Source: a virus. From it: a stretch of DNA of 34,588 nt. The stretch's first letter is position 1; every line of letters begins with the position of its first letter. Where the stretch lies: UHGV virus genome UHGV-0091505; one strand, 5' to 3'. A program made the translations under genes and the position numbers. Below the pieces are notes generated by a model. That model did not search any database. It had not been told where the DNA came from and worked only from the letters and a program-made list of their open reading frames with translations. Below are positions 26 to 34,538 of this stretch, in pieces.

Positions 26-1426
26 TTAGTCTCCAGGATTCCCGGGGCGGTTCAGACCGCAATAAAATCCTGTTCCTGTACCGTTTGTGTAAAGTGCGTG
101 ACCTTCATGCCCTTGTGAAGCAGTGATATTTTTATGGTATATTCCTCCCACTTTTTGGTTGTCTTTGACTACACCCTTTACACCAAAATCACATGTGTCA
201 AATCTCGCGTATCCTATGCATGCACTTACTCCAGTTAGCCAAATGCCAGTTATGAATCCATAGACTTCAATGTCATTAATATAGAAATCAGAAATGTCCC
301 TTTCTTCATAATAGTTCAACCATACTGGACATCCATAATCTTTCCAGTCTCCAGATGTTACATATGAATATCCAAGGGTATTACTATTAATTACAGTTGT
401 CCTGTCCCCATTATATGTAAACTTCCAATATCCCAACATTTTCACTCGAGGTGTACGAATTTCGAACACTGGATAACCCCACAACAATTGCTCAAAGGTG
501 GCATTATCAGAAATTAGAACCATGTCAGGATTTGGAATTATAATCCACCCAGATATAGTGTATTTTAGATTTCCAAACTCTATTCTCTTTGCTCCACTAT
601 TCAGAGCAGCATTAATTGCTGCCATATCAGCATCGGCATCACCATTTCCTACCGGTCCGAAATCTGCAACAGTAACTGTTTCAGCCATCTTGTCATGGAC
701 TGTCCTTGTAACAGAATTAGAATAAGGTTGCTTAACTGCAACTAAAGCATCCCCCTTCCCATCGGAAGAACTTGCTAACTGAATAAATACATCAGATGCT
801 GATCCAGATGGAGGAATAACAACAATCGCATTACCATCATTATCAAATGCTGGCATCATATTCCGCCGAACTGCTGCTGGAGGTAACTGATTTATTGGCT
901 CTGGAACGCGGAGAGTTCGGCTAAGATTAGAGGATACAATGGTATCTACATAGTTTTTTGTAGCTGCATCCTGAGGGTCGCGTGGGTCTTTCAGATTACG
1001 AATATAGTTATTCAGAGCATTGTACCAGTTAGCAATACTTGACGGCTTGCGCAGTGCCAGGCTAAACCAACTGCGAACATGCTGAATCAGCATCGTTAGC
1101 TTATCAAGCGCATCCTCATGCACCTCGGCAAAGAACTTACCCTGATTGCGCAGATCAGTTTCCTGAGTAACTGGCAGTTCTCGTAATATAGAAATCTGAT
1201 AACCGTTAGCCAATGCCTTCGACAGAATTACATTACCGCCGTTGTACCCTCCCGCACCAGTTACTGTGTAATCAGTATCAAGAGCCAGCACAGCGATATT
1301 TTCATCAAGGTCAACCACCTGAACAACCAGGTCGGATTTGTTGAAAATGCGGAAGGTATACGGAAACGATGTCGTAACGCCGTTGCCGGTGTATTCGTTG
1401 TGGTCAACTTCGGTTGAGACCGTCAT
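26..1426 (-). CDS. tail fibre / tailspike protein
   Basis: 466-aa ORF; N-terminus MTVSTEVDHNEYTGNGVTTSFPYTFRIF is the conserved phage tail-fibre N-terminal anchor motif; mid region ADFGPVGNGDADADMAAINAALNSGA resembles the start of tailspike beta-helix domains; stop TAA at 26-28. Confidence 0.75.
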   Translation of the reverse strand: MTVSTEVDHNEYTGNGVTTSFPYTFRIFNKSDLVVQVVDLDENIAVLALDTDYTVTGAGGYNGGNVILSKALANGYQISILRELPVTQETDLRNQGKFFAEVHEDALDKLTMLIQHVRSWFSLALRKPSSIANWYNALNNYIRNLKDPRDPQDAATKNYVDTIVSSNLSRTLRVPEPINQLPPAAVRRNMMPAFDNDGNAIVVIPPSGSASDVFIQLASSSDGKGDALVAVKQPYSNSVTRTVHDKMAETVTVADFGPVGNGDADADMAAINAALNSGAKRIEFGNLKYTISGWIIIPNPDMVLISDNATFEQLLWGYPVFEIRTPRVKMLGYWKFTYNGDRTTVINSNTLGYSYVTSGDWKDYGCPVWLNYYEERDISDFYINDIEVYGFITGIWLTGVSACIGYARFDTCDFGVKGVVKDNQKVGGIYHKNITASQGHEGHALYTNGTGTGFYCGLNRPGNPGD

Positions 1427-1530
1427 GTTAAATCTCCAGATAGTCGCAGCACCCGTTGCGCCGCATATCTGGTTATTCTATTACCTGAAAAACCATATAT
1501 GGATATATAGCTCATGAATACGGACAGATA

Positions 1531-1545
1531 TTACCTTTCAGGTGA
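1531..1545. promoter_or_regulatory. operator-like site TTACCTTTCAGGTGA (variant of the prophage operator motif)
   Basis: TTACC-N5-GGTGA; same variant class as a site in the cI/cro intergenic region; lies 40 bp upstream of the LexA box. Confidence 0.35.
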
Positions 1546-1582
1546 TTCGCAAAACGTGCTGGATAGCAAACAAATTATTTGC

Positions 1583-1602
1583 TACTGTATAAATATACAG
1601 TT
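1583..1602 (+). promoter_or_regulatory. LexA (SOS) box TACTGTATAAATATACAGTT
   Basis: CTGT-N8-ACAG with AT-only spacer at 1585-1600, flanked TA..TT; about 20 nt upstream of SD GGAGAAG and ATG at 1622. Confidence 0.7.
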
Positions 1603-1621: not shown

Positions 1622-1879
1622 ATGCAGCAGTATCACTATCCACTGGAAGACGGATTTACCGAAAGGATTCACACGCCGGGAGGCGTCAGGTCACTGGTGG
1701 AGGGATCGCACTTGATGAAATTACTCCGGGATCTCGATAAGGATGGATTTAATGTCGATGGCCCACTTGCCGAACTGACTGCACTGATTAACTACGTCAC
1801 CAGCTCACAGATGTCTATGCATGATCTGCAAACACATCTCGACTATTGTGCCGAACAATTACGAAAACAAACCAGATAA
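1622..1879 (+). CDS. small SOS-controlled antirepressor-like protein (standalone paralog of the C-terminal domain of the downstream Bro-N antirepressor)
   Basis: ATG at 1622 preceded by GGAGAAG; the track start at 1514 would place the LexA box inside the ORF; translated product aligns with the last ~75 aa of the 2192-2878 protein (PGGVRSLVEGSHLMKLL..LAELTALINYV..DLQTHLDY versus PSGVLGLTENSLLMNLL..AAELTTMFCYI..DIQTHAEY). Confidence 0.55.
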   Translation: MQQYHYPLEDGFTERIHTPGGVRSLVEGSHLMKLLRDLDKDGFNVDGPLAELTALINYVTSSQMSMHDLQTHLDYCAEQLRKQTR

Positions 1880-1882
1880 GGT

Positions 1883-1925
1883 TTGCAATTACCAAGTGGA
1901 GTACTTATATTTACCTTTGCGGTAA
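1883..1925 (+). promoter_or_regulatory. sigma70-type promoter (TTGCAA-17 nt-TATATT) with operator palindrome TTACCTTTGCGGTAA abutting the -10
   Basis: -35 at 1883-1888, -10 at 1906-1911, perfect TTACC-N5-GGTAA at 1911-1925; same -10/operator juxtaposition as at the pL-like promoter. Confidence 0.45.
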
Positions 1926-2019
1926 ATTTACATCGCACTCCTCTTGTGCCATAGTAATCTGGCACTGGCAAAATCCAGTGCCGGGATTGGCGTCCTTGGT
2001 TACTACAGAGGCACATATG

Positions 2020-2036: not shown

Positions 2037-2191
2037 TTATGTGTAAAGCGCACCTATTCTATGGTGGGCTGTGTGGGGGCACCGAAAGGTGCGCCGGGTC
2101 CTTTGTAGCCGGTTACGCCAACCCTGCACAGTTCACCACCAACCGATTGGCGTCGGTAGTGGTGATTAACCTAACTACAAAGGTGATCACT

Positions 2192-2878
2192 ATGACTGCT
2201 AACGTAACCCCATCTGTTTTTCATTTTGAATCAGAAGCAACCATTCGAGCCATTGTTATTGATGGAAATCCCTGGTTTGTTGCCAAAGACGTTATTAAAG
2301 CTCTTCAACTGACAAACCCGACTATGTCAATAAAATCTCTTGATGATGATGAAAGGGCTAAATTTAACTTAGGCCGTCAAGGCGAAACCAATATTATCAA
2401 CGAGTCAGGCCTCTACACACTGATCCTCCGCTGCCGCGACGCAGTGACACCAGGCACTATCCCCTACCGCTTTCGTAAATGGGTTACAGGTGAGGTACTT
2501 CCTCAGATCCGCCGCACCGGAAGTTACATTAAAAACTCGCTCTCGCAGGAAGAACGGATAAAGATGGTTGCCGACCAGGTAGCCAACGCCACGGCGTCAG
2601 CAGTGATGCAGGCGATGAAGATAGAGAACAAAACCTACAACGCCCCACTGAAGCCCGGCTACCGCAGCCTGATACATTCTCCGTCTGGTGTTCTCGGCCT
2701 GACGGAGAACTCACTGCTGATGAATCTGCTGAACCAGTTACAGGAAGACGGGCACGATGTATCTGGCGCGGCAGCGGAGCTGACCACCATGTTCTGCTAC
2801 ATCGTCGGTGTGAGCAAATGCCTGCGTGATATCCAGACACACGCGGAGTACATCAACGACAAGGCTGGGTTCTTCTGA
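2192..2878 (+). CDS. phage antirepressor, Bro-N domain family (Ant-like)
   Basis: ATG at 2192 with SD AAAGGTGA; N-terminal region FHFESEATIRAIVIDGNPWFVAKDVIKALQL..ESGLYTLILRCRD is a Bro-N/antirepressor signature; C-terminal domain is paralogous to ORF 1622-1879. Confidence 0.8.
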   Translation: MTANVTPSVFHFESEATIRAIVIDGNPWFVAKDVIKALQLTNPTMSIKSLDDDERAKFNLGRQGETNIINESGLYTLILRCRDAVTPGTIPYRFRKWVTGEVLPQIRRTGSYIKNSLSQEERIKMVADQVANATASAVMQAMKIENKTYNAPLKPGYRSLIHSPSGVLGLTENSLLMNLLNQLQEDGHDVSGAAAELTTMFCYIVGVSKCLRDIQTHAEYINDKAGFF

Positions 2879-2924
2879 CGGGCGGCGGTGGCATTCGTTA
2901 AAAACAAGGCCGCGAAAGCGGCCT

Positions 2925-2936
2925 GTGACATGTCAC
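2925..2936. repeat. perfect 12-bp palindrome GTGACATGTCAC (copy 1 of 3)
   Basis: Directly follows an 18-bp GAAA-tetraloop hairpin (AGGCCGC-GAAA-GCGGCCT, 2907-2924) downstream of the antirepressor stop. Confidence 0.6.
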
Positions 2937-2943
2937 GCTCACG

Positions 2944-3084
2944 TTATGACAAGCCTATGTACCCTGCTACACCAGATAATATCAAAATAGCTGCAACAGC
3001 AAATTCGCCATCGTCAATGATACATTTACGGTTCATAACGCCAAGTGCAACAAGCGCAAACACAACAAGAATAAAAGCAATCAT
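2944..3084 (-). CDS. small hydrophobic two-segment membrane protein (46 aa), not in the supplied ORF track
   Basis: Hand translation: MIAFILVVFALVALGVMNRKCIIDDGEFAVAAILILSGVAGYIGLS; ATG 10 nt after the stop of the upstream 824-aa gene, same strand. Confidence 0.3.
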   Translation of the reverse strand: MIAFILVVFALVALGVMNRKCIIDDGEFAVAAILILSGVAGYIGLS

Positions 3085-18872: not shown

Positions 18873-19079
18873 TTACTGACCAAGCAGCGTTTTACCGCTG
18901 GTATTAGCGGTTGATGTGTCGCCCTGAGAACCGGTAAGCAGCGTAGAACTACGACCAGCAGCAGCGCGACGGCGACGTGTTTCTTCGTCGCGGGCATCAA
19001 CAACTGCGGCATCCTGCTCCTGTGGTGCTGCCTGAACTTCTGGTGTTGCAGGCACTGATGGTGAGCTACCCATGCACAT
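18873..19079 (-). CDS. small hypothetical protein upstream of portal
   Basis: 68-aa polar Arg-rich ORF; its start is preceded by the same CGGAGTCATTGA sequence found before the portal ATG. Confidence 0.35.
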   Translation of the reverse strand: MCMGSSPSVPATPEVQAAPQEQDAAVVDARDEETRRRRAAAGRSSTLLTGSQGDTSTANTSGKTLLGQ

Positions 19080-19169
19080 ATCAATGACTCCGTACGCAAT
19101 TAAATTATTACCAATTTAACCATATATGATTTATTTATCGTAGATAGTTGACATTTAACGCACAAATTA

Positions 19170-19184
19170 TTACCTTTCAGGTAG
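19170..19184. promoter_or_regulatory. operator-like site TTACCTTTCAGGTAG
   Basis: TTACC-N5-GGTAG; 14/14 identical to the core of the site at 1531-1545; a TTGACA hexamer lies 16 nt upstream. Confidence 0.3.
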
Positions 19185-19506
19185 CAAAGGGTTCATTCCG
19201 GTTATTAACCTGACTGGCTTGTCGTTAAATTGAACAGGTGGAGTGAGCTTTTATTTTGAGCAGTACGGCGTATGGCACATGCGTCGTTAGCGGTCTGGTG
19301 ACGTTAAAGGGGTTACCTTTTCCCCTAGCTCAGGCAACAAACCAGGTAGCCGGAATGTGCAAGCCCCGTTCATATCGTCGGACCGAGGACTCACCACCCT
19401 GGCGATTCGGTGTGACGCCTCGGAAGAGACGAGGGTACAACGATGAGAGCATTTATGGAGCCGCGACAAAGTGTGGCGCCTTAACAGGCTAAGTGCTCTC
19501 AGCGTT

Positions 19507-19583
19507 GTGGCATTAGCTCAGTTGGACAGAGCAACCGCCTTCTAAGCGGTTGGTCGCAGGTTCGAATCCTGCATGCCACGCCA
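19507..19583 (+). tRNA. tRNA-Arg (anticodon UCU), argU-like
   Basis: 77 nt cloverleaf folded by hand: acceptor GTGGCAT/ATGCCAC, D-arm GCTC/GAGC, anticodon stem ACCGC/GCGGT with loop CTTCTAA, T-arm GCAGG-TTCGAAT-CCTGC, discriminator G and encoded CCA. Confidence 0.85.
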
Positions 19584-19785
19584 GAATCACGCCTAAGGAC
19601 CGTGATGCCAGAAGTTCCAGGGGCTTGGCGGTGATGGTTTCCCTTGAAGGACTATCACCGCCCTTTTTACAGCAGGACGCCATTGCGATGACTTCATGCT
19701 GTAAACCAGTACAGCCACGGAAGGCATAACTCATTGCTTCCAGTTCGCCCGGTTCGCCGGGCATTTTTTAAGGTGAGATTAGACT

Positions 19786-20157
19786 ATGAGTGACAAAGAC
19801 ATTGAATCTGAAATTCAGGCTAAAGGTTTAGCCGCGCCGCGCGTTACGCCAGACCATATCGAGAGCATTATTGCTCAGGAGGCATATTTCACAGCAGAAG
19901 ATGGTGTCTTTGGCGTAGCCATAAAAGCGAAACATACTGGCGAAGAGGTAAACTACCAGCCGCACGAATCACTTTCTCTGCTGACGTTCTGCGTTCTGGT
20001 GCTGCGCAACGGCTTCACCGTCACCGGAGAGAGCGCCTGTGCAAGCCCGGAAAACTTTGATGCGGAAATTGGTCGGAAGATTGCCCGGCAGAATGCTGTA
20101 AACAAAATCTGGATGCTTGAAGGTTACTTGCTGAAGCAGAAGTTAAGCGAGCAATAA
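19786..20157 (+). CDS. Gp49-like phage protein (N4 gp49 / Sf6 gp66-type, function unknown)
   Basis: 123-aa ORF with SD AAGGTGAG; C-terminal pattern GESACASPENFDAEIGRKIARQNAVNKIWMLEGY recalled as this family; opposite strand to flanking terminase and portal. Confidence 0.5.
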   Translation: MSDKDIESEIQAKGLAAPRVTPDHIESIIAQEAYFTAEDGVFGVAIKAKHTGEEVNYQPHESLSLLTFCVLVLRNGFTVTGESACASPENFDAEIGRKIARQNAVNKIWMLEGYLLKQKLSEQ

Positions 20158-20161
20158 CACC

Positions 20162-20173
20162 GTGACATGTCAC
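20162..20173. repeat. perfect 12-bp palindrome GTGACATGTCAC (copy 2 of 3)
   Basis: 5 nt after the Gp49-like stop, in the convergent gap with terL; followed by a weak hairpin and a T-rich run. Confidence 0.6.
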
Positions 20174-20247
20174 AAACAGCCAGCTCATAGGGTGGCTTTG
20201 TTTTATCCTCACCAGAGGATATCAGCAGCATTATCCCCTCCAGCGGA

Positions 20248-21723: not shown

Positions 21724-22316
21724 TGATTACCATCCTGACGTTCTTTGAGTCGCTTCCTGGCTGCCGCTATGCGATCAGCAATTGTCACATTCACATTAAC
21801 ATCCAAGCGTTCTTTGAATGCATTGACATCGACGTGCTTGCCAATCAGTTCGAGGTTCTTCACCTTGTCAGGCCATTTAATTTTTTTGAGGATTGTCTCT
21901 ATCGAATCCTCGTTCATGTTCATGATGGTCGATGACAGATCAAAGCCACTAAGCGTAGTGCGCCAGATTTTCGGCCACTCACGGATTGGTTTAAGGCTCC
22001 CATCGTCGTTGAGGATGTCGATCACGTCCATCTGGTCGATCTCCACCAGGCGCATGAGAACGTAATCAGCACTGACACGCATTCGTTTGTTGCGCTCCTC
22101 CATCAGCTCGGCAATCCGTTTCTGAATGCGTTCATCGCGCATCATGACACTGGCTTTAACTGCCGCTGTATTTGGGGAGAATCCTGCGTTAATCGCTGCC
22201 TGAGTCTGGTTTTCAGGCGTTTTGATGTATGACTGGCAATAAGCCTCCTGCATTGCTGTGAGCGGCTTAAATTGCGTTGATTTGCGTTTATAGGTTTTAG
22301 GTTCAGCAGGCATCAT
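21720..22316 (-). CDS. terminase small subunit
   Basis: Probable start at the ATG pair 22316/22313 (MMPAEPK..); the longer track ORF extends through an operator repeat translating to TITTTVTITTVV; DNA-binding type N-terminus. Confidence 0.8.
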   Translation of the reverse strand: MMPAEPKTYKRKSTQFKPLTAMQEAYCQSYIKTPENQTQAAINAGFSPNTAAVKASVMMRDERIQKRIAELMEERNKRMRVSADYVLMRLVEIDQMDVIDILNDDGSLKPIREWPKIWRTTLSGFDLSSTIMNMNEDSIETILKKIKWPDKVKNLELIGKHVDVNAFKERLDVNVNVTIADRIAAARKRLKERQDGNQ

Positions 22317-22333
22317 AACCACCGTGGTAATAG

Positions 22334-22348
22334 TTACCGTTGTGGTAA
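22334..22348. promoter_or_regulatory. operator palindrome TTACCGTTGTGGTAA upstream of terS
   Basis: Perfect TTACC-N5-GGTAA 18 nt upstream of the terS start; preceded on the minus strand by TACTAT (-10-like). Confidence 0.4.
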
Positions 22349-22354
22349 TAGTAC

Positions 22355-22385: not shown

Positions 22386-22426
22386 AGTATTCAAAACCCA
22401 TCAAATTTATCATGCATAATCTACTC

Positions 22427-22438
22427 GTGACATGTCAC
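22427..22438. repeat. perfect 12-bp palindrome GTGACATGTCAC (copy 3 of 3)
   Basis: Overlaps the stop codon of the 112-aa gene, upstream of the terminator and terS. Confidence 0.6.
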
Positions 22439-22773
22439 ACTATTAATTTCGTTTCATGCCAGCCTTTAGTCACCCAGCATTGCGAGTCACCATTACACGG
22501 GCATGAATTCACAGGAATTCTCTCGCCGCACTTACCGCAAAGTTTTCTGCTGATCGATTTTATACGCCCGCGCACGCGTACATCATCCTGGCGGATCAGT
22601 AACGCGATATACTCACCAAATTCGTAAGGTGCACGCCCGGGGCGACGAGTGGCACAGTTACGCTCCAGCATTTCAATTTCCTGAGCATCAAGCACAATCT
22701 CCAGCTTACGTACACCGGATGCAGCTTGTCTGGCTCTCTGAGCGGCTTTGCGCTCTGCTGCTGATTTAGCCAT
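22435..22773 (-). CDS. hypothetical Cys-cluster (zinc-binding-like) protein
   Basis: 112 aa; basic N-terminus, CGKCG and CPCNGDSQC clusters; last gene before terS. Confidence 0.45.
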   Translation of the reverse strand: MAKSAAERKAAQRARQAASGVRKLEIVLDAQEIEMLERNCATRRPGRAPYEFGEYIALLIRQDDVRVRGRIKSISRKLCGKCGERIPVNSCPCNGDSQCWVTKGWHETKLIV

Positions 22774-25573: not shown

Positions 25574-25918
25574 TCAGAACTCTTCGATGTTCCAGCCACC
25601 ACCTGCTTTCTTTGGTTTAACCGTTACCCCGATGATTCGGAACGGATACTGATCTGCGGCGACTTTGGTTTTCACCCTGGCGTCGTCGGTCCAGAAACCT
25701 TTCACTTCGTGCAGTTCCATCTCGCCGGTGGCGAGCATCACAGCAAAATCGGGCGTATAGAACGTGTTGTCAGCTAACCGCAGCTTGATACCCTCGAATC
25801 GATACCAGGCGATTTCCCCTGCACGTTTACGCAGCTCAAGGTGCTGGCAATACGCAGATTCTGTTTTGTTCATCTGGCCTGTTTTGAGTCGACCAAGAGC
25901 CTGTATCTGTTTTCTCAT
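25574..25918 (-). CDS. DUF1064-family phage protein
   Basis: 114 aa; pattern YCQHLELRKRAGEIAWYRFEGIKLRL..YTPDF..EVKGFWTDDARVKTK typical of DUF1064. Confidence 0.55.
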   Translation of the reverse strand: MRKQIQALGRLKTGQMNKTESAYCQHLELRKRAGEIAWYRFEGIKLRLADNTFYTPDFAVMLATGEMELHEVKGFWTDDARVKTKVAADQYPFRIIGVTVKPKKAGGGWNIEEF

Positions 25919-25921
25919 GAT

Positions 25922-25998
25922 TTACCCCTGAGGTAATTAAAAACCACATAAGACACTAAATCAATAGAGTTTAGAATATTTTGTTACCCAACAGGTAA
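25922..25998 (-). promoter_or_regulatory. operator-flanked promoter (minus strand TTGATT-17 nt-TTTAAT) between the P-like gene and the nin-like block
   Basis: Two perfect palindromes TTACCCCTGAGGTAA (25922-25936) and TTACCCAACAGGTAA (25984-25998) bracket a -35/-10 pair (plus-strand 25959-25964 and 25936-25941); same architecture as the pL-like promoter. Confidence 0.45.
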
Positions 25999-26035
25999 TT
26001 ATCAAGACGTAAAAAAATGCGCTATCGCGCTGGTA

Positions 26036-26836
26036 TTACTTGATAAATCCTGCCGCCTTTCCCCGCCTGTATTCCTCCATCAGCCACTGCGCCGGTGTTA
26101 TCCCCCCAAGGGTGGCGGCGTTAGGCATGCACCCGAAACTTCGCCCTGGTGGATGGTAAACGTCTCTCCCTGTGTTCGGAGGCGTACTCATGGGTTCTGG
26201 CTTTGCCTGTATGCTGATCACCGGATCGGGTATCTGCTGTCCGGAAGCCACCTTTTTCGCCCAATCATCGAGCAGCCTGCGCGCGTGTTTCTCAACCTCA
26301 ATCTCGCTAAGCTGGCGCTGATACATTGCACGGCGGGTATCACATACGACCCAGTACATAACCGGATGTCGCCACGGGAATCTTTCGGGACCACCAGGAT
26401 ATAAACTTTTTTCCTTGCTGTACCGGTGAAACTCCGCCATCACATCGTCAATGGTGACGCCAAGAACCATCTTGCTGTCTTTACACCACTTGATAAATTG
26501 CCCTGGCGACGGCCAGAACGGAGATTCACTGGCGCGGGCGTGGCGCATACCAGCAGAAACCTGTTCACGGGTTCGGATCCCCCCTTCGGCAAACGCAGCA
26601 ATCCACTGCTGTTTTGCAGCAACTTCCTGCTCTGGCGTCTTCAGGTTGGTTACCACTGCCGCCGGAAACAGTTGTTTCAGCTGTTTGAAAAGGGCATCAA
26701 CAAGCCTCTCTGCTGACATGTTCACCACATTATCATTGTTGACGTATTGATGCTCATAACCTGACATGCGAGAAAGGGCTTCTCCGTCACGGTTTTGTAT
26801 CGCGGTAAAAACGTTGTTCACAAGAAATCCTCCCAT
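26036..26836 (-). CDS. replication protein P-like helicase loader
   Basis: Segment QQWIAAFAEGGIRTREQVSAGMRHARASESPFWPSPGQFIKWC aligns with lambda P (RRQWVLAFRENGITTMEQVNAGMRVARRQNRPFLPSPGQFVAWC); start codon choice uncertain (overlaps O-like gene by 19 nt). Confidence 0.85.
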   Translation of the reverse strand: MGGFLVNNVFTAIQNRDGEALSRMSGYEHQYVNNDNVVNMSAERLVDALFKQLKQLFPAAVVTNLKTPEQEVAAKQQWIAAFAEGGIRTREQVSAGMRHARASESPFWPSPGQFIKWCKDSKMVLGVTIDDVMAEFHRYSKEKSLYPGGPERFPWRHPVMYWVVCDTRRAMYQRQLSEIEVEKHARRLLDDWAKKVASGQQIPDPVISIQAKPEPMSTPPNTGRDVYHPPGRSFGCMPNAATLGGITPAQWLMEEYRRGKAAGFIK

Positions 26837-27633
26837 GCTTCAGGGCTGTTCCAGTGCGGAACATTGTTATCAGGTAATGTTGATTGCTTCTGTCTGCTAA
26901 TCTGCAGCCGCCTTGCCAGCTTCTGCTCCCACTGTGCCTGATGGTATGCCTTACCCTCAGCCATCCAGTAAATTCTGAACTCTGCAAGTTCCTGTGCCGT
27001 TGGCAGACTGTCCAGGTAGATTCCCTGCAATGAGCTTTTCCGAAGAAAGTCATCTGATGGCTGCCATTGTTCATGCATGACAAATTTGCCTAATTGCCCT
27101 GGCCCACCAGGAGGAACAAAGTTATTCATCACGGCGTTGTTTGCGCCTGGGTCATGAGGCACAGAATCTCCGCTTTTTGTCCTGCTCTCCCTCTCTTGGT
27201 TAAATGACTGGTTATATGACTGGTTCTGGATCCCGTTTTTGGGATCATTCAACATCCCGTTTTTGGGATCATTCAACATCCCGTTTTTGGGTATATTCCC
27301 GTTTTCGGGAACATTACCGTTTTCGGGTTCATTACGTCCTTCTAGGTTGCCTTTAATGTTCCCTTTTTTGGTTATATTAAGAGAGAAAACCCGCACTCTT
27401 TTCGTCGCTCCCTTTCTCTCTCCGGTATCTGAAATAAGCCCCATTTTCATGAGCGATATAAGCCCGGCCTGCACGGTTTTTTTATTCAGGCAAGTGTCTT
27501 TAACGAGGCGTTCTATGCTGGGGTAGCAGAGGTTATATTCATCGGCTCTGTCAGCCATCGAGAGCAGTATGAGCTTTAATGACGAGCTACCTGGATCTGT
27601 CTCCCAGGCCCAATCTGTTGCATGTCTGCTCAT
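26818..27633 (-). CDS. replication initiator, O-like (HTH N-terminal domain, iteron-containing)
   Basis: 271 aa; N-terminal winged-HTH-like region; internal DNA iterons encode the NG-rich repeat PENGNVPENGNIPKNGMLNDPKNGMLNDPKNG; followed by P-like gene. Confidence 0.75.
   Translation of the reverse strand: MSRHATDWAWETDPGSSSLKLILLSMADRADEYNLCYPSIERLVKDTCLNKKTVQAGLISLMKMGLISDTGERKGATKRVRVFSLNITKKGNIKGNLEGRNEPENGNVPENGNIPKNGMLNDPKNGMLNDPKNGIQNQSYNQSFNQERESRTKSGDSVPHDPGANNAVMNNFVPPGGPGQLGKFVMHEQWQPSDDFLRKSSLQGIYLDSLPTAQELAEFRIYWMAEGKAYHQAQWEQKLARRLQISRQKQSTLPDNNVPHWNSPEAWEDFL
27231..27330. repeat. replication origin iterons (about five direct repeats, core CCCGTTTT(T/C)GGG) inside the O-like gene
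   Basis: Two perfect 24-bp units TCCCGTTTTTGGGATCATTCAACA then three shortened variants; AT-rich stretch follows. Confidence 0.7.
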
Positions 27634-27648
27634 GATTAATCTCCGCTA

Positions 27649-27849
27649 TCAGCTTGAATGTTGTGGGGAGGAATTAATCATGATCTGCTTAATCTCTGCC
27701 CTGATGCGACGGTTTGATTCCATGGTGCACTCAACACAGTGTCCGTTGTAAACCCAGCGTTCACTGTCATGTCCGTGCTTACATGGTTTTCCGGTGTAGT
27801 AGCGTTTAAGTCCGCGCTTTGCGGCATCAATACGTGTAATGATTTCCAT
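27649..27849 (-). CDS. small Cys/His-cluster protein in cII-equivalent position
   Basis: Start taken at ATG 27849 (MEIITRIDAAKRGLKRYYTGKPCKHGH..CVEC), SD AGG; the track ORF has a hydrophobic 21-aa extension. Confidence 0.45.
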   Translation of the reverse strand: MEIITRIDAAKRGLKRYYTGKPCKHGHDSERWVYNGHCVECTMESNRRIRAEIKQIMINSSPQHSS

Positions 27850-27929
27850 GGTAAGACCTGTTATTAGTATTGGGATTACGGTTATTTTGTGCTGACACAA
27901 AAAAAAGATCAACCATATTTGGTTTTTTA

Positions 27930-27944
27930 TTACCTTTGAGGTGC
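27930..27944. promoter_or_regulatory. operator-like site TTACCTTTGAGGTGC in the cro-cII intergenic region
   Basis: Variant of the TTACC-N5-GGTAA motif, next to the post-cro hairpin. Confidence 0.3.
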
Positions 27945-27978
27945 GAATAGATATGAAAAGACCGCCGGATGACGGTCT
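27945..27978 (-). terminator. tR1-like hairpin terminator after cro
   Basis: Minus-strand AGACCG..CGGTCT stem followed by TTTCATATCTATT. Confidence 0.4.
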
Positions 27979-27999: not shown

Positions 28000-28230
28000 T
28001 CATGAGTAGAAGAAGTATGCCAGTTCTGCTTTTGAGCGCAGCCATTGTCTTGTTTTACAGGCTTTAAAAAGCCCATTCATCAATACCTTACCTGGCATTT
28101 TGCGCTTACCTGTTAAGTGAGTCTGGATATAGTGACTCGTCGTTCCGGCTTCCTGTGCGAAGGCTTCACGCTCATCCGGAGTAAGTGCAAGCCAGTGCTT
28201 TTTGAAATCGAAATGTCCGTTATCGCTCAT
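28000..28230 (-). CDS. Cro-like HTH regulator
   Basis: 76 aa, divergent from the repressor gene across an operator-rich region; HTH-like segment EAGTTSHYIQTHLTGKRKMP. Confidence 0.6.
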   Translation of the reverse strand: MSDNGHFDFKKHWLALTPDEREAFAQEAGTTSHYIQTHLTGKRKMPGKVLMNGLFKACKTRQWLRSKAELAYFFYS

Positions 28231-28329: not shown

Positions 28330-28384
28330 TATTGCTTTAAATTGAATCATCTACTGATTCATATATGAGGCGATTTTCCAGAAA

Positions 28385-28969
28385 ATGAAAAGTATCCAGG
28401 ACGTCCGCAGGCAAAATCTCAACGACTTGATCGACCGTGAATTCAATGGTGTTCAGACGCGGATGGCAGAAAAACTTGGAACTCAGGCAAATCTGGTAAA
28501 CCGCTGGGCTCTTGGCAAGAAGGTTATCGGCGACCAGGTTGCGCGAAAAATTGAAGCTGCCGCCAATAAACCCCGTAACTGGCTTGATATCGATCGCTCG
28601 CTTTCTCAGGAAGGTTTTCAGCCTGTCGGACCAAGCGACATTGGTCAACTGGCGGCTCACAACCTGGAACGCTGGATGAGCGAAAGCCGCGACCTTTCAA
28701 CACAGGGAAAACTTCACCGCGCATCCGGCGTCGCCCAGGTGACAATCAGCCGCCTGTTAAACAATGAGGTCAGCGTTTCCATTTCCACCCTGGAGAATGT
28801 TGCATCCGCATTCGGGCGTCACGGCTATGAATTACTGATTCACCCGCACGACCCTGCGACCATCAACTATGACCGCTCGCGCTACGCATTGTTACCCGAA
28901 ACCGAGAAAGCAAAGATCGAAAGTTACATTGAATTTGTCATCAACCAGAACGAAAAAAACAAACAATAA
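28385..28969 (+). CDS. prophage repressor, dual-HTH type without S24 peptidase domain
   Basis: 194 aa; two HTH-like segments (QTRMAEKLGTQANLVNRWALGKK and HRASGVAQVTISRLLNNE); no Ser-Lys autocleavage motif recognisable; divergent from cro, same strand as the early-left operon. Confidence 0.7.
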   Translation: MKSIQDVRRQNLNDLIDREFNGVQTRMAEKLGTQANLVNRWALGKKVIGDQVARKIEAAANKPRNWLDIDRSLSQEGFQPVGPSDIGQLAAHNLERWMSESRDLSTQGKLHRASGVAQVTISRLLNNEVSVSISTLENVASAFGRHGYELLIHPHDPATINYDRSRYALLPETEKAKIESYIEFVINQNEKNKQ

Positions 28970-29015: not shown

Positions 29016-29026
29016 TGCCTGTTCGA

Positions 29027-29103
29027 TTACCTGTCGGGTAATTTTTTTAACTCATATCTATTGACATCAAACCAAATACGAATAATCATTACCTCAACGG
29101 TAA
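29027..29103 (+). promoter_or_regulatory. pL-like promoter (TTGACA-16 nt-TAATCA) flanked by two operator palindromes
   Basis: TTACCTGTCGGGTAA (29027-29041), -35 29061-29066, -10 29083-29088, TTACCTCAACGGTAA (29089-29103). Confidence 0.55.
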
Positions 29104-29122
29104 CAAACCGAGGTAACAAGTT

Positions 29123-31680: not shown

Positions 31681-31980
31681 GTGAGAAAGTTAAGCCGACT
31701 TGAAAAATATCACATGAACAAGGTTTCAATGCGCAGTCCGTCAAAGATTGTCGCCGTTACTCCTGCGGCGATAGAGATCGAAAAACGCGCGATTGAAAGA
31801 GAGAAAAAAGGGCAGTTCCGCATTGCCGCCCACCTTTGGCTTCAGTGTATGGATGTTGCTTCTGGTGATGTTGAGCGTGCAAGGATCGCGGTTCGCAGGG
31901 ACCAATGTATCACAAAAGGTAACGGCCTTCGCCGTGGAGACTATAGCGGTATAGGATGTTGTGGGGTGGTTTATGACTAA
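31681..31980 (+). CDS. PerC/ANR-like small regulator (tentative)
   Basis: 99 aa with GTG start (alternative ATG at 31714); segment KKGQFRIAAHLWLQCM resembles the PerC/ANR core motif; weak. Confidence 0.35.
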   Translation: MRKLSRLEKYHMNKVSMRSPSKIVAVTPAAIEIEKRAIEREKKGQFRIAAHLWLQCMDVASGDVERARIAVRRDQCITKGNGLRRGDYSGIGCCGVVYD

Positions 31981-33281: not shown

Positions 33282-34538
33282 TTATTTATTACTGTCTTCC
33301 ATCCACCTCTCAAACTTCGACGGGGAGAACGGAATCAGATCCGTATGCTCCCCGTCAATCCAGGAATCAATCATATCGGCCCACTGCTGCAACATGTAGG
33401 CGCGCTGTCTTGCGTATTCCGCTTTGTTATATACGGCGCGCACACCTTTCTGCTCATGTGCCAGAGCCTTTTCAATCCAGTCTGAAGGATAACCAGCCTC
33501 ATGCAACAACGTACTGGCTGTACGGCGCATATCGTGTACGGTGAAGTCCTGAATATGCTCACCATCTTCATTTATTATTTTCACCGTTCTGTCGATCAGA
33601 GAGTTCAGCGCGGCATTAGATAATGGCTTCCGGAAATTGTAACGACCAGGAACCAGATATTCACTTCCACCAGCGCACATCTGTAACCCGACCAATATAT
33701 CCTGTGCCTGTTTAGGCAGGTAAATAACGTGCGCCCGGCTTCCCTTCATGCGGTCTGAAGGAATTGTCCATGTCCATTTTTTAAAATCTATTTCATCCCA
33801 CGTTGCATTGGTGAACTCGCCTTTACGAACCATAGTGATAAGCACAAGCTTTAAAGCCATTTTCATAGTGCCCATAGCACCAATGGCATCCAGCGTGCGG
33901 AAGAACAGGCCAATTTCTTCTGGTGTCAGTGTTCGCTCTCGTGGTTTAAATATGGCGATAGACGAAGGTTTAATGTCAGCCGCAGGATTAAACAAACCAT
34001 GACCACGGTCATTGGCGTGACGGTATACGCTGCTGATGATCTCCCTGGCCTGTACTGCTGTTGCACGGCCACCGCGTTCGACAATCCGGTCACACAAATC
34101 ACGAACCATCGATGTGGTAATTTCAGCCATCATTTTGTTGCCAAGAACCGGAAGTATGTCACGGTCAATCACCGCCTGCTTCATTGCGCGGGTACTATCA
34201 GCCAGGATGACGTGTTTCATATAACTGTCGGTATGTACCGCAAACGTCTCGGCACCACGAATCTTTTTGATACCGTCACGTTTAGCCGCAGCCGGTGACA
34301 GACCTGCTTTAAGCAGCTTCTTTGCAGCTATCAGTTCTTCTCGCGCTTCTGACAGGCTGATACCGTCACGCCCATACTGCCCTATTACCAGCGTTTCGCG
34401 GCGACCGTTGATACGGTAGTCGTAGCGAAACGAGACCGTGCCTGACGTGAGCACAGCTACATACAGCCCGTCACGATCGGAGACCTTGTACAGTTTGTCC
34501 TGCGGCTTGAGGTTTTTTAATTTTGTATCGGTAAGCAC
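33282..34538 (-). CDS. tyrosine integrase (P4-type with N-terminal arm-binding domain)
   Basis: 418 aa; GTG start; N-terminal DUF4102-type arm-binding domain (LTDTKLKNLKPQDKLYKVSDRDGLYVAV); catalytic-domain residues HDMRRT...Y near C-terminus. Confidence 0.9.
   Translation of the reverse strand: MLTDTKLKNLKPQDKLYKVSDRDGLYVAVLTSGTVSFRYDYRINGRRETLVIGQYGRDGISLSEAREELIAAKKLLKAGLSPAAAKRDGIKKIRGAETFAVHTDSYMKHVILADSTRAMKQAVIDRDILPVLGNKMMAEITTSMVRDLCDRIVERGGRATAVQAREIISSVYRHANDRGHGLFNPAADIKPSSIAIFKPRERTLTPEEIGLFFRTLDAIGAMGTMKMALKLVLITMVRKGEFTNATWDEIDFKKWTWTIPSDRMKGSRAHVIYLPKQAQDILVGLQMCAGGSEYLVPGRYNFRKPLSNAALNSLIDRTVKIINEDGEHIQDFTVHDMRRTASTLLHEAGYPSDWIEKALAHEQKGVRAVYNKAEYARQRAYMLQQWADMIDSWIDGEHTDLIPFSPSKFERWMEDSNK

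What the first reader, a model, noticed from the sequence alone, without database searches (positions are those of the whole stretch)
1484..1545. Conserved ~22-bp junction motif (ATTACC-N5-AACCATATATG) repeated at insertion boundaries
TTACCTGAAAAACCATATATGG (1490-1511) and TTACCAATTTAACCATATATGA (19109-19130) share 16 of 22 positions, and AACCATATTTGG recurs at 27911-27922. Each lies just upstream of an operator-like variant site (1531, 19170, 27930). These look like reused boundary or promoter cassettes flanking the antirepressor insertion, the tRNA/Gp49 insertion and the cro-cII junction, possibly footprints of modular recombination.
Basis: seen in the sequence. Interest (0 to 1): 0.45.

Follow-up and report, generated by a model that had tools for sequence, protein, structure and literature searches.

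The report
Conserved promoter box beside phage repressor operators
The repeated motif is real, but it is a piece of the promoter and operator control region that starts each gene block of an epsilon15/phiV10-type phage, combining half of the known repressor site with a conserved 14-base box that public records do not annotate, and it is not a scar left by DNA insertions.

Summary
The window is a Uetakevirus (epsilon15/phiV10-like) genome in reverse orientation.

**Observation.** It holds, with coordinates slightly off. ATTACC-N5-AACCATATATG occurs exactly at 1480-1501 and 19107-19128, against 0.01 matches expected by chance.

**What the motif is.** It is a composite of two elements:
- ATTACC, one half-site of the 17-bp repressor operator ATTACC-N5-GGTAAT, which is annotated in epsilon15.
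- A 14-bp quasi-palindromic box, AWNCATATNTGGTT on the minus strand. It sits at 1491, 1870, 19118, 25942, 27911 and 29070. That is six hits against 0.43 expected.

**Conservation.** Boxes occupy orthologous promoter regions in phages of Escherichia, Salmonella, Enterobacter and Klebsiella. This includes genomes that lack the antirepressor and tRNA insertions. The centre-to-centre distance from box to operator is invariant within each site class (19.5, 40.5-43.5 or 52.5 bp), although the DNA between them diverges.

**Likely function.** The box is probably a regulator-binding site working in register with the Rep operators. Its position differs by promoter type:
- It replaces the -35 at the tail-fibre, head and lysis promoters.
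- It abuts the -35 at the gp40 and internal ant promoters.
- It fills the spacer at PL and P43.

The binding protein is unidentified. Indirect evidence disfavours the Cro-like protein and p55.

**Recombination.** Two junctions fall within 4 bp of a box, but conservation reflects regulatory function.

**Rating.** Modest novelty.

The parts
1480..1485 (-). It overlaps the -10-like TAATAG/TAGAAT (1475-1483) of the tail-fibre promoter.
   Evidence: GGTAATAGAAT is conserved in 5 of 6 genomes; BUCT554 has GGTAATAAACT.
1491..1504 (-). 14-bp box ATCCATATATGGTT of the tail-fibre promoter (gene 26-1426, minus strand). It lies 7 nt upstream of TAATAG, and there is no -35.
   Evidence: Scores 23.2 bits with the independent matrix. 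Orthologous box in 6 genomes.
1530..1546 (.). Full Rep operator ATTACCTTTCAGGTGAT, 40.5 bp centre to centre from the box at 1491.
   Evidence: Orthologous to the epsilon15 repressor site 19895-19911. Spacing is invariant in 6 genomes.
1870..1883 (.). Box AACCAGATAAGGTT at the left edge of the ant cassette. It abuts the -35 TTGCAA (1883-1888) of an internal ant promoter whose -10 is TATATT (1906-1911).
   Evidence: 14.5 bits; promoter scan 9/12; conserved in phiV10 and Tyrion. The junction with epsilon15 is at 1874/1875.
1910..1926 (.). Rep operator TTTACCTTTGCGGTAAA, overlapping the -10/+1 of the internal ant promoter and 41.5 bp from the box at 1870.
19107..19112 (-). Operator half-site (GGTAAT on the minus strand) within the conserved GGTAATAATTTAAT (-10 region) of the head/structural-operon promoter upstream of the gp3-like gene (18873-19079, minus strand).
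   Evidence: The block is identical in 6 genomes.
19118..19131 (-). 14-bp box AATCATATATGGTT of the structural-operon promoter.
   Evidence: Scores 21.1 bits.. Present in 76 of 80 IMG/VR loci, with TGGTT invariant.
19169..19185 (.). Rep operator ATTACCTTTCAGGTAGC, 52.5 bp from the box. It also covers the -10 of a plus-strand promoter (TTGACA 19148-19153, 17 nt, TACCTT) that points at tRNA-Arg and the gene-66-like ORF.
   Evidence: Orthologous to the epsilon15 repressor site 2931-2947. tRNA.
25921..25999 (-). P43 cassette. In order: distal operator (25999-25983), -35 TTGATT (25964-25959), box TGTCTTATGTGGTT (25955-25942) filling the spacer, -10 TTTAAT (25941-25936), proximal operator (25937-25921), then the ATG at 25918.
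   Evidence: Spacings of -42.5 and +19.5 bp are conserved in epsilon15 and phiV10.
27884..27945 (-). gp40/replication-operon promoter. In order: weak operator (27945-27929), 4 nt, box AACCAAATATGGTT (27924-27911) overlapping the -35 TTGATC (27912-27907), 17-nt spacer, -10 CAAAAT (27889-27884).
   Evidence: Invariant columns in the 5-genome alignment. Box-operator spacing of 19.5 bp in 5 genomes.
29026..29104 (+). PL (early-left) cassette, a mirror image of P43. In order: operator 29026-29042, -35 TTGACA 29061-29066, box (AACCAAATACGAAT on the plus strand) 29070-29083 filling the spacer, -10 AATCAT 29084-29089, operator 29088-29104.
   Evidence: Promoter scan 10/12..

Best explanation
The 22-bp similarity is a composite of two cis-regulatory elements of a Uetakevirus (epsilon15/phiV10-like) genome, read on the strand opposite to transcription.

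**The two elements**
- ATTACC is one half-site of the 17-bp prophage-repressor (Rep) operator ATTACC-N5-GGTAAT.
- AACCATATATGG is the core of a separate 14-bp quasi-palindromic box. In the direction of rightward transcription its consensus is A-W-N-C-A-T-A-T-N-T-G-G-T-T.

**What is shown**
- Each box lies in a promoter region and at a fixed distance from a Rep operator.
- There are three architectures. At the late-type promoters (tail fibre, head operon, lysis) the box sits 7 nt upstream of a -10-like hexamer and there is no -35. At the gp40/replication promoter and the internal ant promoter the box abuts or overlaps the -35, so its centre is near -41.5. At PL and P43 the box fills the 17-bp spacer between -35 and -10.
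- The element, its position and its spacing are conserved across phages of four host genera.

**What is inferred**
- The box is the binding site of a dimeric regulatory protein distinct from Rep and Cro.
- That protein acts in helical register with operator-bound Rep. Depending on position, it substitutes for or assists -35 recognition (late, gp40 and ant promoters) or occludes the promoter (PL, P43). This would give an early-to-late switch.
- The binder is unidentified. The remaining phage candidates are the genus-restricted PerC-like 'transcriptional activator' (31681-31980) and the small zinc-motif protein gp40 (27649-27852). A host factor or a second Rep domain is not excluded.

The motifs coincide with module boundaries because they are the promoters that start each module.
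For: **Identity of the window.** It is 93-98% identical to phiV10-type phages. Gene order is as in NC_007804.

**Operators.**
- The epsilon15 record annotates 16-17-bp 'repressor' binding sites at the orthologous places.
- Twelve such operators are present in the window.

**The box.**
- Six window hits of at least 14 bits against 0.43 expected, using a matrix built from other genomes only.
- Orthologous boxes occur in phiV10, epsilon15, Tyrion, BUCT554 and BUCT711, including the lysis promoter outside the window.
- In 80 IMG/VR loci TGGTT is invariant, while position 9 takes all four bases.
- In Klebsiella phages the operator-to-box stretch is the only part of the 561-base query (the gp3 upstream region plus the start of the portal gene) that blastn still aligns.

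**Spacing.** The centre-to-centre distance from box to operator is identical in every genome within each class, although the intervening sequence diverges. The values are 52.5, 40.5, 43.5, 19.5, -42.5/+19.5 and 41.5 bp.

**Promoters.**
- PL is TTGACA-17-AATCAT, matching 10/12.
- The internal ant promoter is TTGCAA-17-TATATT.
- The P40 -35, -10 and box are invariant columns in the alignment.
- The P43 layout was read directly from the sequence.

**Presence without insertions.** epsilon15 and BUCT554 lack the ant cassette and epsilon15 lacks the tRNA segment, yet the boxes are there.

**Against Cro as the binder.** Its only homologue outside the genus, in Psychrobacter phage pOW20-A, sits in the cro position. 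The operators there are ATACCT-N3-AGGTAT, which is the Rep-operator type and not the box type.

**Against p55 as the binder.** Its family co-occurs with a different palindrome, GTGACNNGTCAC, in Uetakevirus, ZF40 and N15. ZF40 and AH07 have p55 homologues but no boxes.
Against: - No transcription start sites, footprints or expression data were available. All promoters are consensus-based, and the simple sigma-70 scan found none at the head-operon region.
- No protein could be tied to the box. The PerC-like and gp40 candidates rest only on elimination and phyletic distribution.
- The box sits at three different positions relative to the core promoter, which is awkward for a single mechanism.
- Its ACC-N6-GGT core resembles the operator's ACC-N5-GGT, and every box has an operator or half-site 3-5 bp away. 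It could therefore belong to the Rep system itself.
- The left half of the box is weakly conserved, so it may be an asymmetric element and not a dimer site.
- I could not read the primary epsilon15, phiV10 or SPC32H papers. The box may already have been described there.
Confidence: 0.6

Rival explanations
1. The box is part of the immunity system itself. It would be a secondary, non-canonical site contacted by the Rep tetramer, which needs two palindromes, or by another Rep domain such as the C-terminal HTH_3. Operator plus box would then form one composite repressor site that silences every non-immunity promoter in the lysogen.
For: - Every box has an operator or half-site 3-5 bp away and/or a full operator at a fixed distance close to whole helical turns: 19.5, 40.5-43.5 or 52.5 bp.
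- The box core A-ACC-N6-GGT-T resembles the operator core TT-ACC-N5-GGT-AA.
- Promoters with a single full operator (tail fibre, head, lysis, gp40) would otherwise lack a second palindrome. Rep binds DNA as a tetramer whose paired DNA-binding domains come from different dimers (PMC9638917 citing Kim 2016).
- Rep carries two HTH-like regions.
- At the lysis promoter the only operator is about 43.5 bp upstream of the box, too far to occlude RNA polymerase alone.
Against: - The box has its own sharply conserved consensus, with TGGTT invariant and CATAT nearly so, and does not drift around the operator consensus.
- Its half-site spacing is 1 bp longer than the operator's.
- PL and P43 already have two full operators 62 bp apart and still carry a box between them.
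- OR and the terS region have two or three operators and no box.
Confidence: 0.2
2. The box is read directly by host machinery. It would be an unusual -35-substitute or upstream promoter element for RNA polymerase, or the site of a host transcription factor conserved in Enterobacteriaceae.
For: - The box is invariant across phages of four enterobacterial genera, while the phage proteins diverge to 44-77% identity.
- It always lies within or next to the core promoter.
- The stronger half is always on the same genome strand, in 6 of 6 intergenic boxes.
Against: - Its position relative to the -10 differs between promoter classes: 0, 7 or about 21 nt.
- By eye it does not fit the IHF, CRP, FNR, sigma-54, DnaA, ArgR or PhoP consensus sequences as I recall them.
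- A full-text search for CCATATATGG together with 'phage' returned nothing relevant.
Confidence: 0.12
3. This is the first reader's reading: the motifs are linker or boundary sequences whose main significance is to serve as sites or footprints of modular recombination flanking inserted cassettes.
For: - The TL-2011b-type replication module diverges from the window immediately after GGTTGATC, at 27907-27910.
- The epsilon15/window junction of the ant cassette, 1874/1875, lies inside the box at 1870-1883.
- Homology with distant relatives at the head operon ends at the outer edge of the operator, at 19183.
Against:
- The right end of the ant cassette carries a terminator and a different palindrome, not a box.
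- Boxes are present at the same loci in genomes without the insertions.
- The fixed spacing to operators and -10 elements is unexplained by recombination.
- Only 2 of 6 boxes are near a breakpoint.
Confidence: 0.06

Closest known systems
Repressor (Rep, gp38) operators of epsilon15/SPC32H-type phages: the 17-bp dyad ATTACC-N5-GGTAAT, annotated as protein_bind 'repressor' in NC_004775.2. The Rep-Ant system of SPC32H (Kim and Ryu 2013; Kim et al. 2016) is cited from memory and via PMC9638917.
   Same: The sites at 1530 and 19169 are orthologous to annotated epsilon15 sites. A LexA box upstream of the gp19-like/ant operon fits the SPC32H antirepression scheme.
   Different: Its other half, AACCAT, matches GGTAAT at 2 of 6 positions. 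It belongs to a different 14-bp box that the epsilon15 and phiV10 records do not annotate.
Activator-dependent late promoters of temperate phages, in which a good -10 is paired with a conserved (often palindromic) box in place of the -35. Examples recalled from memory are the P1 Lpa-dependent late promoters and the P2/P4 Ogr/Delta promoters. Phi29 p4 is a regulator that both represses early promoters and activates late ones.
   Same: The tail-fibre, head and lysis promoters have a -10-like hexamer at a fixed 7 nt from the box and no -35. The same box inside the PL and P43 spacers would give simultaneous early shut-off.
   Different: No activator has been identified. The box also occurs at about -41.5 of promoters that have their own -35. 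Each box is locked to a repressor operator at a fixed distance, which is not a feature of those systems as far as I know. No experimental data exist here.
Lambda-type OL/OR promoter-operator cassettes, and the conserved boundary sequences at module junctions of mosaic lambdoid genomes (general knowledge).
   Same: The regulatory cassettes are paralogous and repeated at the heads of operons (PL and P43 are mirror-image copies). Some mosaic junctions map to them.
   Different: There are two distinct site types per cassette. The operators are spread over at least eight promoter regions, including late ones, and are not confined to two.

Membership tests
epsilon15-type Rep operator (ATTACC-N5-GGTAAT) | A 17-bp dyad with both half-sites (TTACC ... 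GGTAA). | tested here: not met
The neighbouring sites at 1530, 19169 and 27929 do meet it, with 1, 2 and 3 mismatches.
epsilon15-type Rep operator (ATTACC-N5-GGTAAT) | Orthology to sites annotated as repressor-binding in epsilon15. | tested here: met
   The operators at 1530 and 19169 align with epsilon15 19895-19911 and 2931-2947. This applies to the operators, not to the box.
epsilon15-type Rep operator (ATTACC-N5-GGTAAT) | Bound by Rep protein. | not testable with these tools
   Needs EMSA or footprinting. The primary papers are not held in the library.
Sigma-70 promoter | -35 and -10 hexamers separated by 16-18 nt. | tested here: inconclusive
   Met for PL at 10/12 and for the internal ant promoter at 9/12. 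By eye, met for P40 (TTGATC-17-CAAAAT) and P43 (TTGATT-17-TTTAAT). Not met at the tail-fibre and head promoters, which have only a -10-like hexamer.
Activator-dependent late promoter (box in place of the -35) | A conserved box at a fixed distance upstream of a -10, with no -35, in front of late operons. | tested here: met
   The arrangement is box, 7 nt, then TAATAG, TAATAA or TATAAT/TATGAT at the tail-fibre, head and lysis promoters. It holds in 4-6 genomes.
Activator-dependent late promoter (box in place of the -35) | A cognate phage-encoded activator that binds the box. | tested here: inconclusive
   p55 and the Cro-like protein are disfavoured. PerC-like gp31 and gp40 remain untested candidates.
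Recombination linker / module-boundary sequence | The motif lies at the breakpoints on both sides of inserted cassettes. | tested here: not met
   The ant cassette (1875 to about 2899) has a box only at its left edge, and a terminator plus GTGACATGTCAC at its right edge. The tRNA-segment junctions, about 19298 and 19633, carry no box.
Recombination linker / module-boundary sequence | The motif is absent where no insertion is present. | tested here: not met
   Boxes are present at orthologous sites in epsilon15, BUCT554 and BUCT711, which lack the ant cassette.
IHF site | The WATCAANNNNTTR core. | tested here: not met
   By inspection of all box instances. The IHF sites predicted in the epsilon15 record lie beside the boxes, not on them.

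The most novel reading that the evidence does not exclude
Uetakeviruses carry an undescribed second layer of transcriptional control. A genus-specific regulator, possibly the PerC-like gp31 or the zinc-motif gp40, would bind the 14-bp box in fixed helical register with Rep operators. It would switch off PL and P43 while switching on the replication, antirepressor, head, tail-fibre and lysis promoters, acting as a single early-to-late switch. In parallel, the p55/phrog_536 family would form a separate protein-site pair, with the palindrome GTGACNNGTCAC placed at its own stop codon and at operon ends. That pairing is shared by unrelated phages (Uetakevirus, ZF40, N15).
Probability: 0.3. Interest if true: 0.55.

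Novelty: new member of a known kind. Interest (0 to 1): 0.4.

Why it matters
epsilon15, phiV10 and SPC32H-type phages are used as reporter and biocontrol phages, and as models for antirepressor-driven induction, yet how they time late gene expression is not described in anything I could read. A conserved box locked to every regulated promoter gives a concrete handle. Mutating it, or finding its binder, would show how late genes are switched on and how early genes are shut off. It also tells annotators that the repeated similarity between these intergenic regions is regulatory paralogy and not insertion scars. Finally, it shows where modules can be swapped safely when engineering these phages: immediately downstream of the box and -35, as nature did in TL-2011b.

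Tried and rejected
**1. p55/gp49 (22435-22773) as the box binder.**
- It is attractive by position, as the last early gene before terS, and by sequence, which looks like an RHH-like motif plus a zinc motif.
- I rejected it as the best candidate for three reasons. ZF40 (63% identical homologue) and AH07 (57.5%) have no boxes. Both of those phages also encode Q-type antiterminators. The family instead co-occurs with GTGACNNGTCAC.
- The AlphaFold model of p55 had low confidence (pLDDT 62.8), so I ran no fold search.

**2. The Cro-like gp39 as the box binder.**
- Its recognition helix is invariant and differs from Rep's, which first suggested a separate target.
- Its Psychrobacter homologue sits among TACC-N5-GGTA operators, and OR contains no conserved box.

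**3. gp40 homologues outside the genus.** The N-terminal zinc motif is a widespread module, often fused to nucleases. Vibrio phage 1.240.O was uninformative.

**4. Host-factor consensus sequences.** I compared IHF, CRP, FNR, sigma-54, DnaA, ArgR, PhoP and others by eye and from memory. None fits.

**5. Literature.** Kropinski 2007, Kim and Ryu 2013 and Kim 2016 are not held. Searches for the operator consensus and for CCATATATGG found nothing relevant. The ZX5 and PhiV10 papers say nothing on these motifs.

**6. An RNA-level role.** Most boxes are imperfect palindromes and lie upstream of the predicted -10, so a hairpin function is unlikely.

**7. IMG/VR loci anchored on p55.** All were close relatives. 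They were useful only for within-type variation.

Full report
**Context**

The window is a nearly complete Uetakevirus genome (epsilon15/phiV10 type), in reverse orientation relative to phiV10. It is 93-98% identical to phiV10, PAS61, phiv142-3 and others. Gene order follows NC_007804.

Landmarks:
- Tail-fibre gene start at 1426 (minus strand).
- gp19-like gene at 1622-1879 and Bro-N antirepressor at 2039-2878 (plus strand).
- Structural operon on the minus strand up to the gp3-like gene at 18873-19079.
- tRNA-Arg at 19507-19583.
- Terminase, then p55 (phrog_536) at 22435-22773.
- Replication genes, then gp40-like at 27649-27852 and cro-like at 28000-28230 (all minus strand).
- Repressor at 28385-28969, then the early-left operon (plus strand).
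- Integrase at 33282-34538.

**Checking the observation**

The strings are present, though the first is at 1481-1502 (not 1490-1511) and the second at 19108-19129. The third is at 27911-27922 as stated. The two 22-mers share 16 of 22 positions by direct comparison.

| Pattern | Matches found | Expected by chance |
|---|---|---|
| ATTACC-N5-AACCATATATG | 2 exact | 0.01 |
| AACCATATWTGR | 3 exact on the plus strand; 7 with one mismatch | 0.59 |
| ATTACCTTTSAGGT | 3 exact (1530, 19169, 27929); 8 with two mismatches | 0.26 |

**Anatomy: two elements, not one**

A scan for ATTACC-N5-GGTAAT finds twelve good dyads:
- 1530, 1910 and 19169.
- 22315 and 22333, upstream of terS.
- 25921 and 25983.
- 27929.
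- 28266, 28297 and 28314, which form OR.
- 29026 and 29088, which form OL.

The epsilon15 GenBank record annotates 16-17-bp 'protein_bind: repressor' sites at the orthologous positions (12-27, 2931-2947, 19895-19911, three at OL, and 35906-35922).

The rest of the motif is a different element. Read on the minus strand, which is the direction of rightward transcription in phiV10, it is a 14-bp quasi-palindrome of the form AWNCATATNTGGTT.

I built a weight matrix only from epsilon15, Tyrion, BUCT554 and BUCT711. It scores six window positions at 14 bits or more: 1491, 1870, 3020, 19118, 27911 and 29070. Shuffles give 0.43 on average, with a maximum of 3 in 300. A seventh, weaker copy is at 25942. 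The hit at 3020 lies inside a small ORF and is probably chance.

**Conservation**

The same box occurs at orthologous sites in phiV10, epsilon15 (Salmonella), Tyrion and BUCT554 (Enterobacter) and BUCT711 (Klebsiella). The sites are upstream of gp3, the tail fibre, the lysis cassette (outside this window), gp40, gp43/p45, and within OL.

The flanking intergenic sequence diverges freely, but the box and the adjacent -10-like blocks do not. Examples of the latter are GGTAATAGAAT, GGTAATAATTTAAT and TATTGTGTATGAT. For Klebsiella phages, the operator-to-box stretch is the only part of the 561-base query (the gp3 upstream region plus the start of the portal gene) that blastn still aligns.

In 80 IMG/VR loci of the E. 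coli type, TGGTT never varies, whereas position 9 takes all four bases.

**Spacing**

The centre-to-centre distance between the box and the nearest full operator is identical in every genome examined.

| Site class | Box-to-operator distance (bp) |
|---|---|
| Head operon (gp3) | 52.5 |
| Tail fibre | 40.5 |
| Lysis | 43.5 |
| gp40 | 19.5 |
| P43 | -42.5 and +19.5 |
| OL | -19.5 and +42.5 |
| ant cassette | 41.5 |

The intervening sequence is not conserved. At the tail-fibre promoter, for example, the 25-nt gap is unrelated between the E. coli, Salmonella and Klebsiella phages. The distances are close to 2, 4 and 5 helical turns. This is the strongest sign that whatever binds the box is physically coupled to whatever binds the operator.

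**Promoter architectures**

1. **Box in the spacer (PL and P43).** These two are mirror-image copies of one cassette: distal operator, 18 nt, -35, 3 nt, box, then a -10 formed by 4 nt plus the AT of the proximal operator.
   - PL is 29026-29104 on the plus strand, with TTGACA-17-AATCAT matching 10/12.
   - P43 is 25999-25921 on the minus strand, with TTGATT-17-TTTAAT.
   - In both, the box is the promoter spacer, with its centre near -19.5.
2. **Box abutting the -35.**
   - At the gp40 promoter the box overlaps the -35 TTGATC by 2 nt, and the -10 CAAAAT follows after 16-17 nt. All of these are invariant columns in a five-genome alignment.
   - The internal ant promoter is TTGCAA-17-TATATT, at 1883-1911, and is conserved in Tyrion.
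   - In both, the box centre is near -41.5.
3. **Late type (tail fibre, head operon, lysis).** The box lies 7 nt upstream of TAATAG, TAATAA or TATAAT/TATGAT, with no recognisable -35 at the first two. The simple sigma-70 scan finds nothing there. At the tail-fibre and head promoters the lone GGTAAT half-site overlaps the -10.

All promoters here are inferred from consensus and conservation. No transcript data were available.

**Who binds the box?** This remains unresolved, but two candidates can be down-weighted.

*p55.* It is the last early-right gene and has an RHH-like N-terminus plus a Cys-rich C-terminus.
- It has 57.5-63% identical homologues in the myoviruses AH07 and ZF40. Both use Q-type antiterminators, and neither has a box.
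- The family travels with another palindrome, GTGACNNGTCAC. This occurs three times in the window (2924, 20161, 22426; 0.02 expected).
- That palindrome is found at the same three operon ends in all six Uetakevirus genomes, and three times each in ZF40 and N15.
- In Uetakevirus and N15 one copy overlaps the stop codon of the p55 gene, and in ZF40 it follows the stop codon by one base. In Vibrio phage K233 two copies lie nearby.

*The Cro-like protein.*
- It has an invariant recognition helix (AGTTSHYIQTHL) that differs from Rep's (NLVNRW). It is weakly similar to the Rep N-terminal domain.
- Its only homologue outside the genus sits in the cro position of Psychrobacter phage pOW20-A. The operators there are ATACCT-N3-AGGTAT, which is the Rep-operator type.
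- OR has three operators and no conserved box.

*Remaining phage candidates.*
- The PerC-like 'transcriptional activator' at 31681-31980. Its distribution of 36 records, all Uetakevirus, matches that of the box.
- gp40, whose zinc motif is a widespread DNA-associated module.
- A host factor, or a second Rep domain, is not excluded.

**The recombination idea**

Relative to epsilon15, the ant cassette occupies window 1875 to about 2899. Its right end is a terminator hairpin plus GTGACATGTCAC. BUCT554 resembles epsilon15 at this locus, and BUCT711 has a different cassette with its own operator-controlled promoter.

Homology with distant relatives at the head operon ends at 19183, the outer edge of the operator.

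At the cro/gp40 junction, TL-2011b-type phages are about 99% identical to the window up to GGTTGATC and unrelated immediately afterwards. A replication-module swap therefore occurred exactly at the box and -35.

Two of six boxes thus lie within 4 bp of a real breakpoint. The listed motifs, however, do not flank the insertions. They are present where no insertion exists, and their spacing constraints point to regulatory selection. Module junctions coincide with them because they are the promoters that begin each module. Short conserved sequences there may also favour viable recombinants.

**Comparison with known systems**

The operator part is already known, from the epsilon15 annotation and the SPC32H Rep-Ant work. 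I cite the latter from memory and through PMC9638917. The 14-bp box is not annotated in either the phiV10 or the epsilon15 record. In epsilon15 a predicted RNase III feature overlaps the lysis-promoter box. I found no mention of the box in the papers I could search, but the primary genome papers were not available to me.

Functionally it resembles the boxes of activator-dependent late promoters, and dual regulators such as phi29 p4. This is an analogy recalled from memory, not a tested membership.

**Verdict**

The feature is real and non-random. The known part is the Rep operator half-site. The new part is a genus-conserved box with fixed phasing to the operators, whose binding protein is unknown. 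Interest is moderate.

Noticed in passing
window 2924-2937 (+), 20161-20174 (-), 22426-22439 (-): A second conserved palindrome, GTGACATGTCAC, occurs exactly three times as TGTGACATGTCACG (0.02 expected). Each copy sits at the 3' end of a transcription unit, next to a terminator hairpin, and one overlaps the stop codon of p55. The same three positions are conserved in phiV10, epsilon15, Tyrion, BUCT554 and BUCT711. GTGACNNGTCAC also occurs three times each in ZF40 and N15, again at or next to the stop codon of the p55 homologue. This suggests a protein-site pair for the phrog_536 family. In N15 these could coincide with the published dispersed centromere sites, which I could not check.
   Followed up: partly
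window 1583-1602: There is a perfect LexA box, TACTGTATAAATATACAGTT, upstream of the gp19-like ORF (1622-1879) and the Bro-N antirepressor (2039-2878). It is conserved in epsilon15 and fits SOS-controlled antirepression as described for SPC32H.
   Followed up: partly
window 19148-19185 and 19507-19583: A plus-strand promoter-like site (TTGACA, 17 nt, TACCTT) has its -10 covered by the Rep operator at 19169-19185. It points toward tRNA-Arg(TCT) and the gene-66/Gp49-like ORF (19786-20157). The phiV10 'p04' ORF equivalent (19513-19764, minus strand) overlaps the tRNA and may be spurious.
   Followed up: no
window 27197-27335: Three adjacent tandem-repeat arrays lie inside the replication-initiator gene (26818-27633, minus strand). 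They are 12 bp x 2.4 copies, 24 bp x 2.6 copies (100% identical) and 18 bp x 3.1 copies. They are probably origin iterons.
   Followed up: no
window 22315-22349: Two adjacent Rep operators, 18 bp apart, lie just downstream of the p55 terminator. They fall within the 5' end of the longest terS ORF (TTG start at 22394). The true terS start is probably downstream of them, as annotated in epsilon15.
   Followed up: no
L090 (Psychrobacter phage pOW20-A) 8760-8800 and 9640-9710: An unrelated myovirus from Psychrobacter uses operators ATACCT-N3-AGGTAT, the same TACC-N5-GGTA type as Uetakevirus. It also has a homologue of the Uetakevirus Cro-like protein paired with a different, CI-like repressor.
   Followed up: partly
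window 28358-28371: A degenerate box-like sequence, ATTCATATATGAGG, lies 41.5 bp from the outer OR operator and just upstream of the rep start codon. It is present in the E. coli-type phages and BUCT554 but not in Tyrion, epsilon15 or BUCT711. Its significance is unclear.
   Followed up: partly
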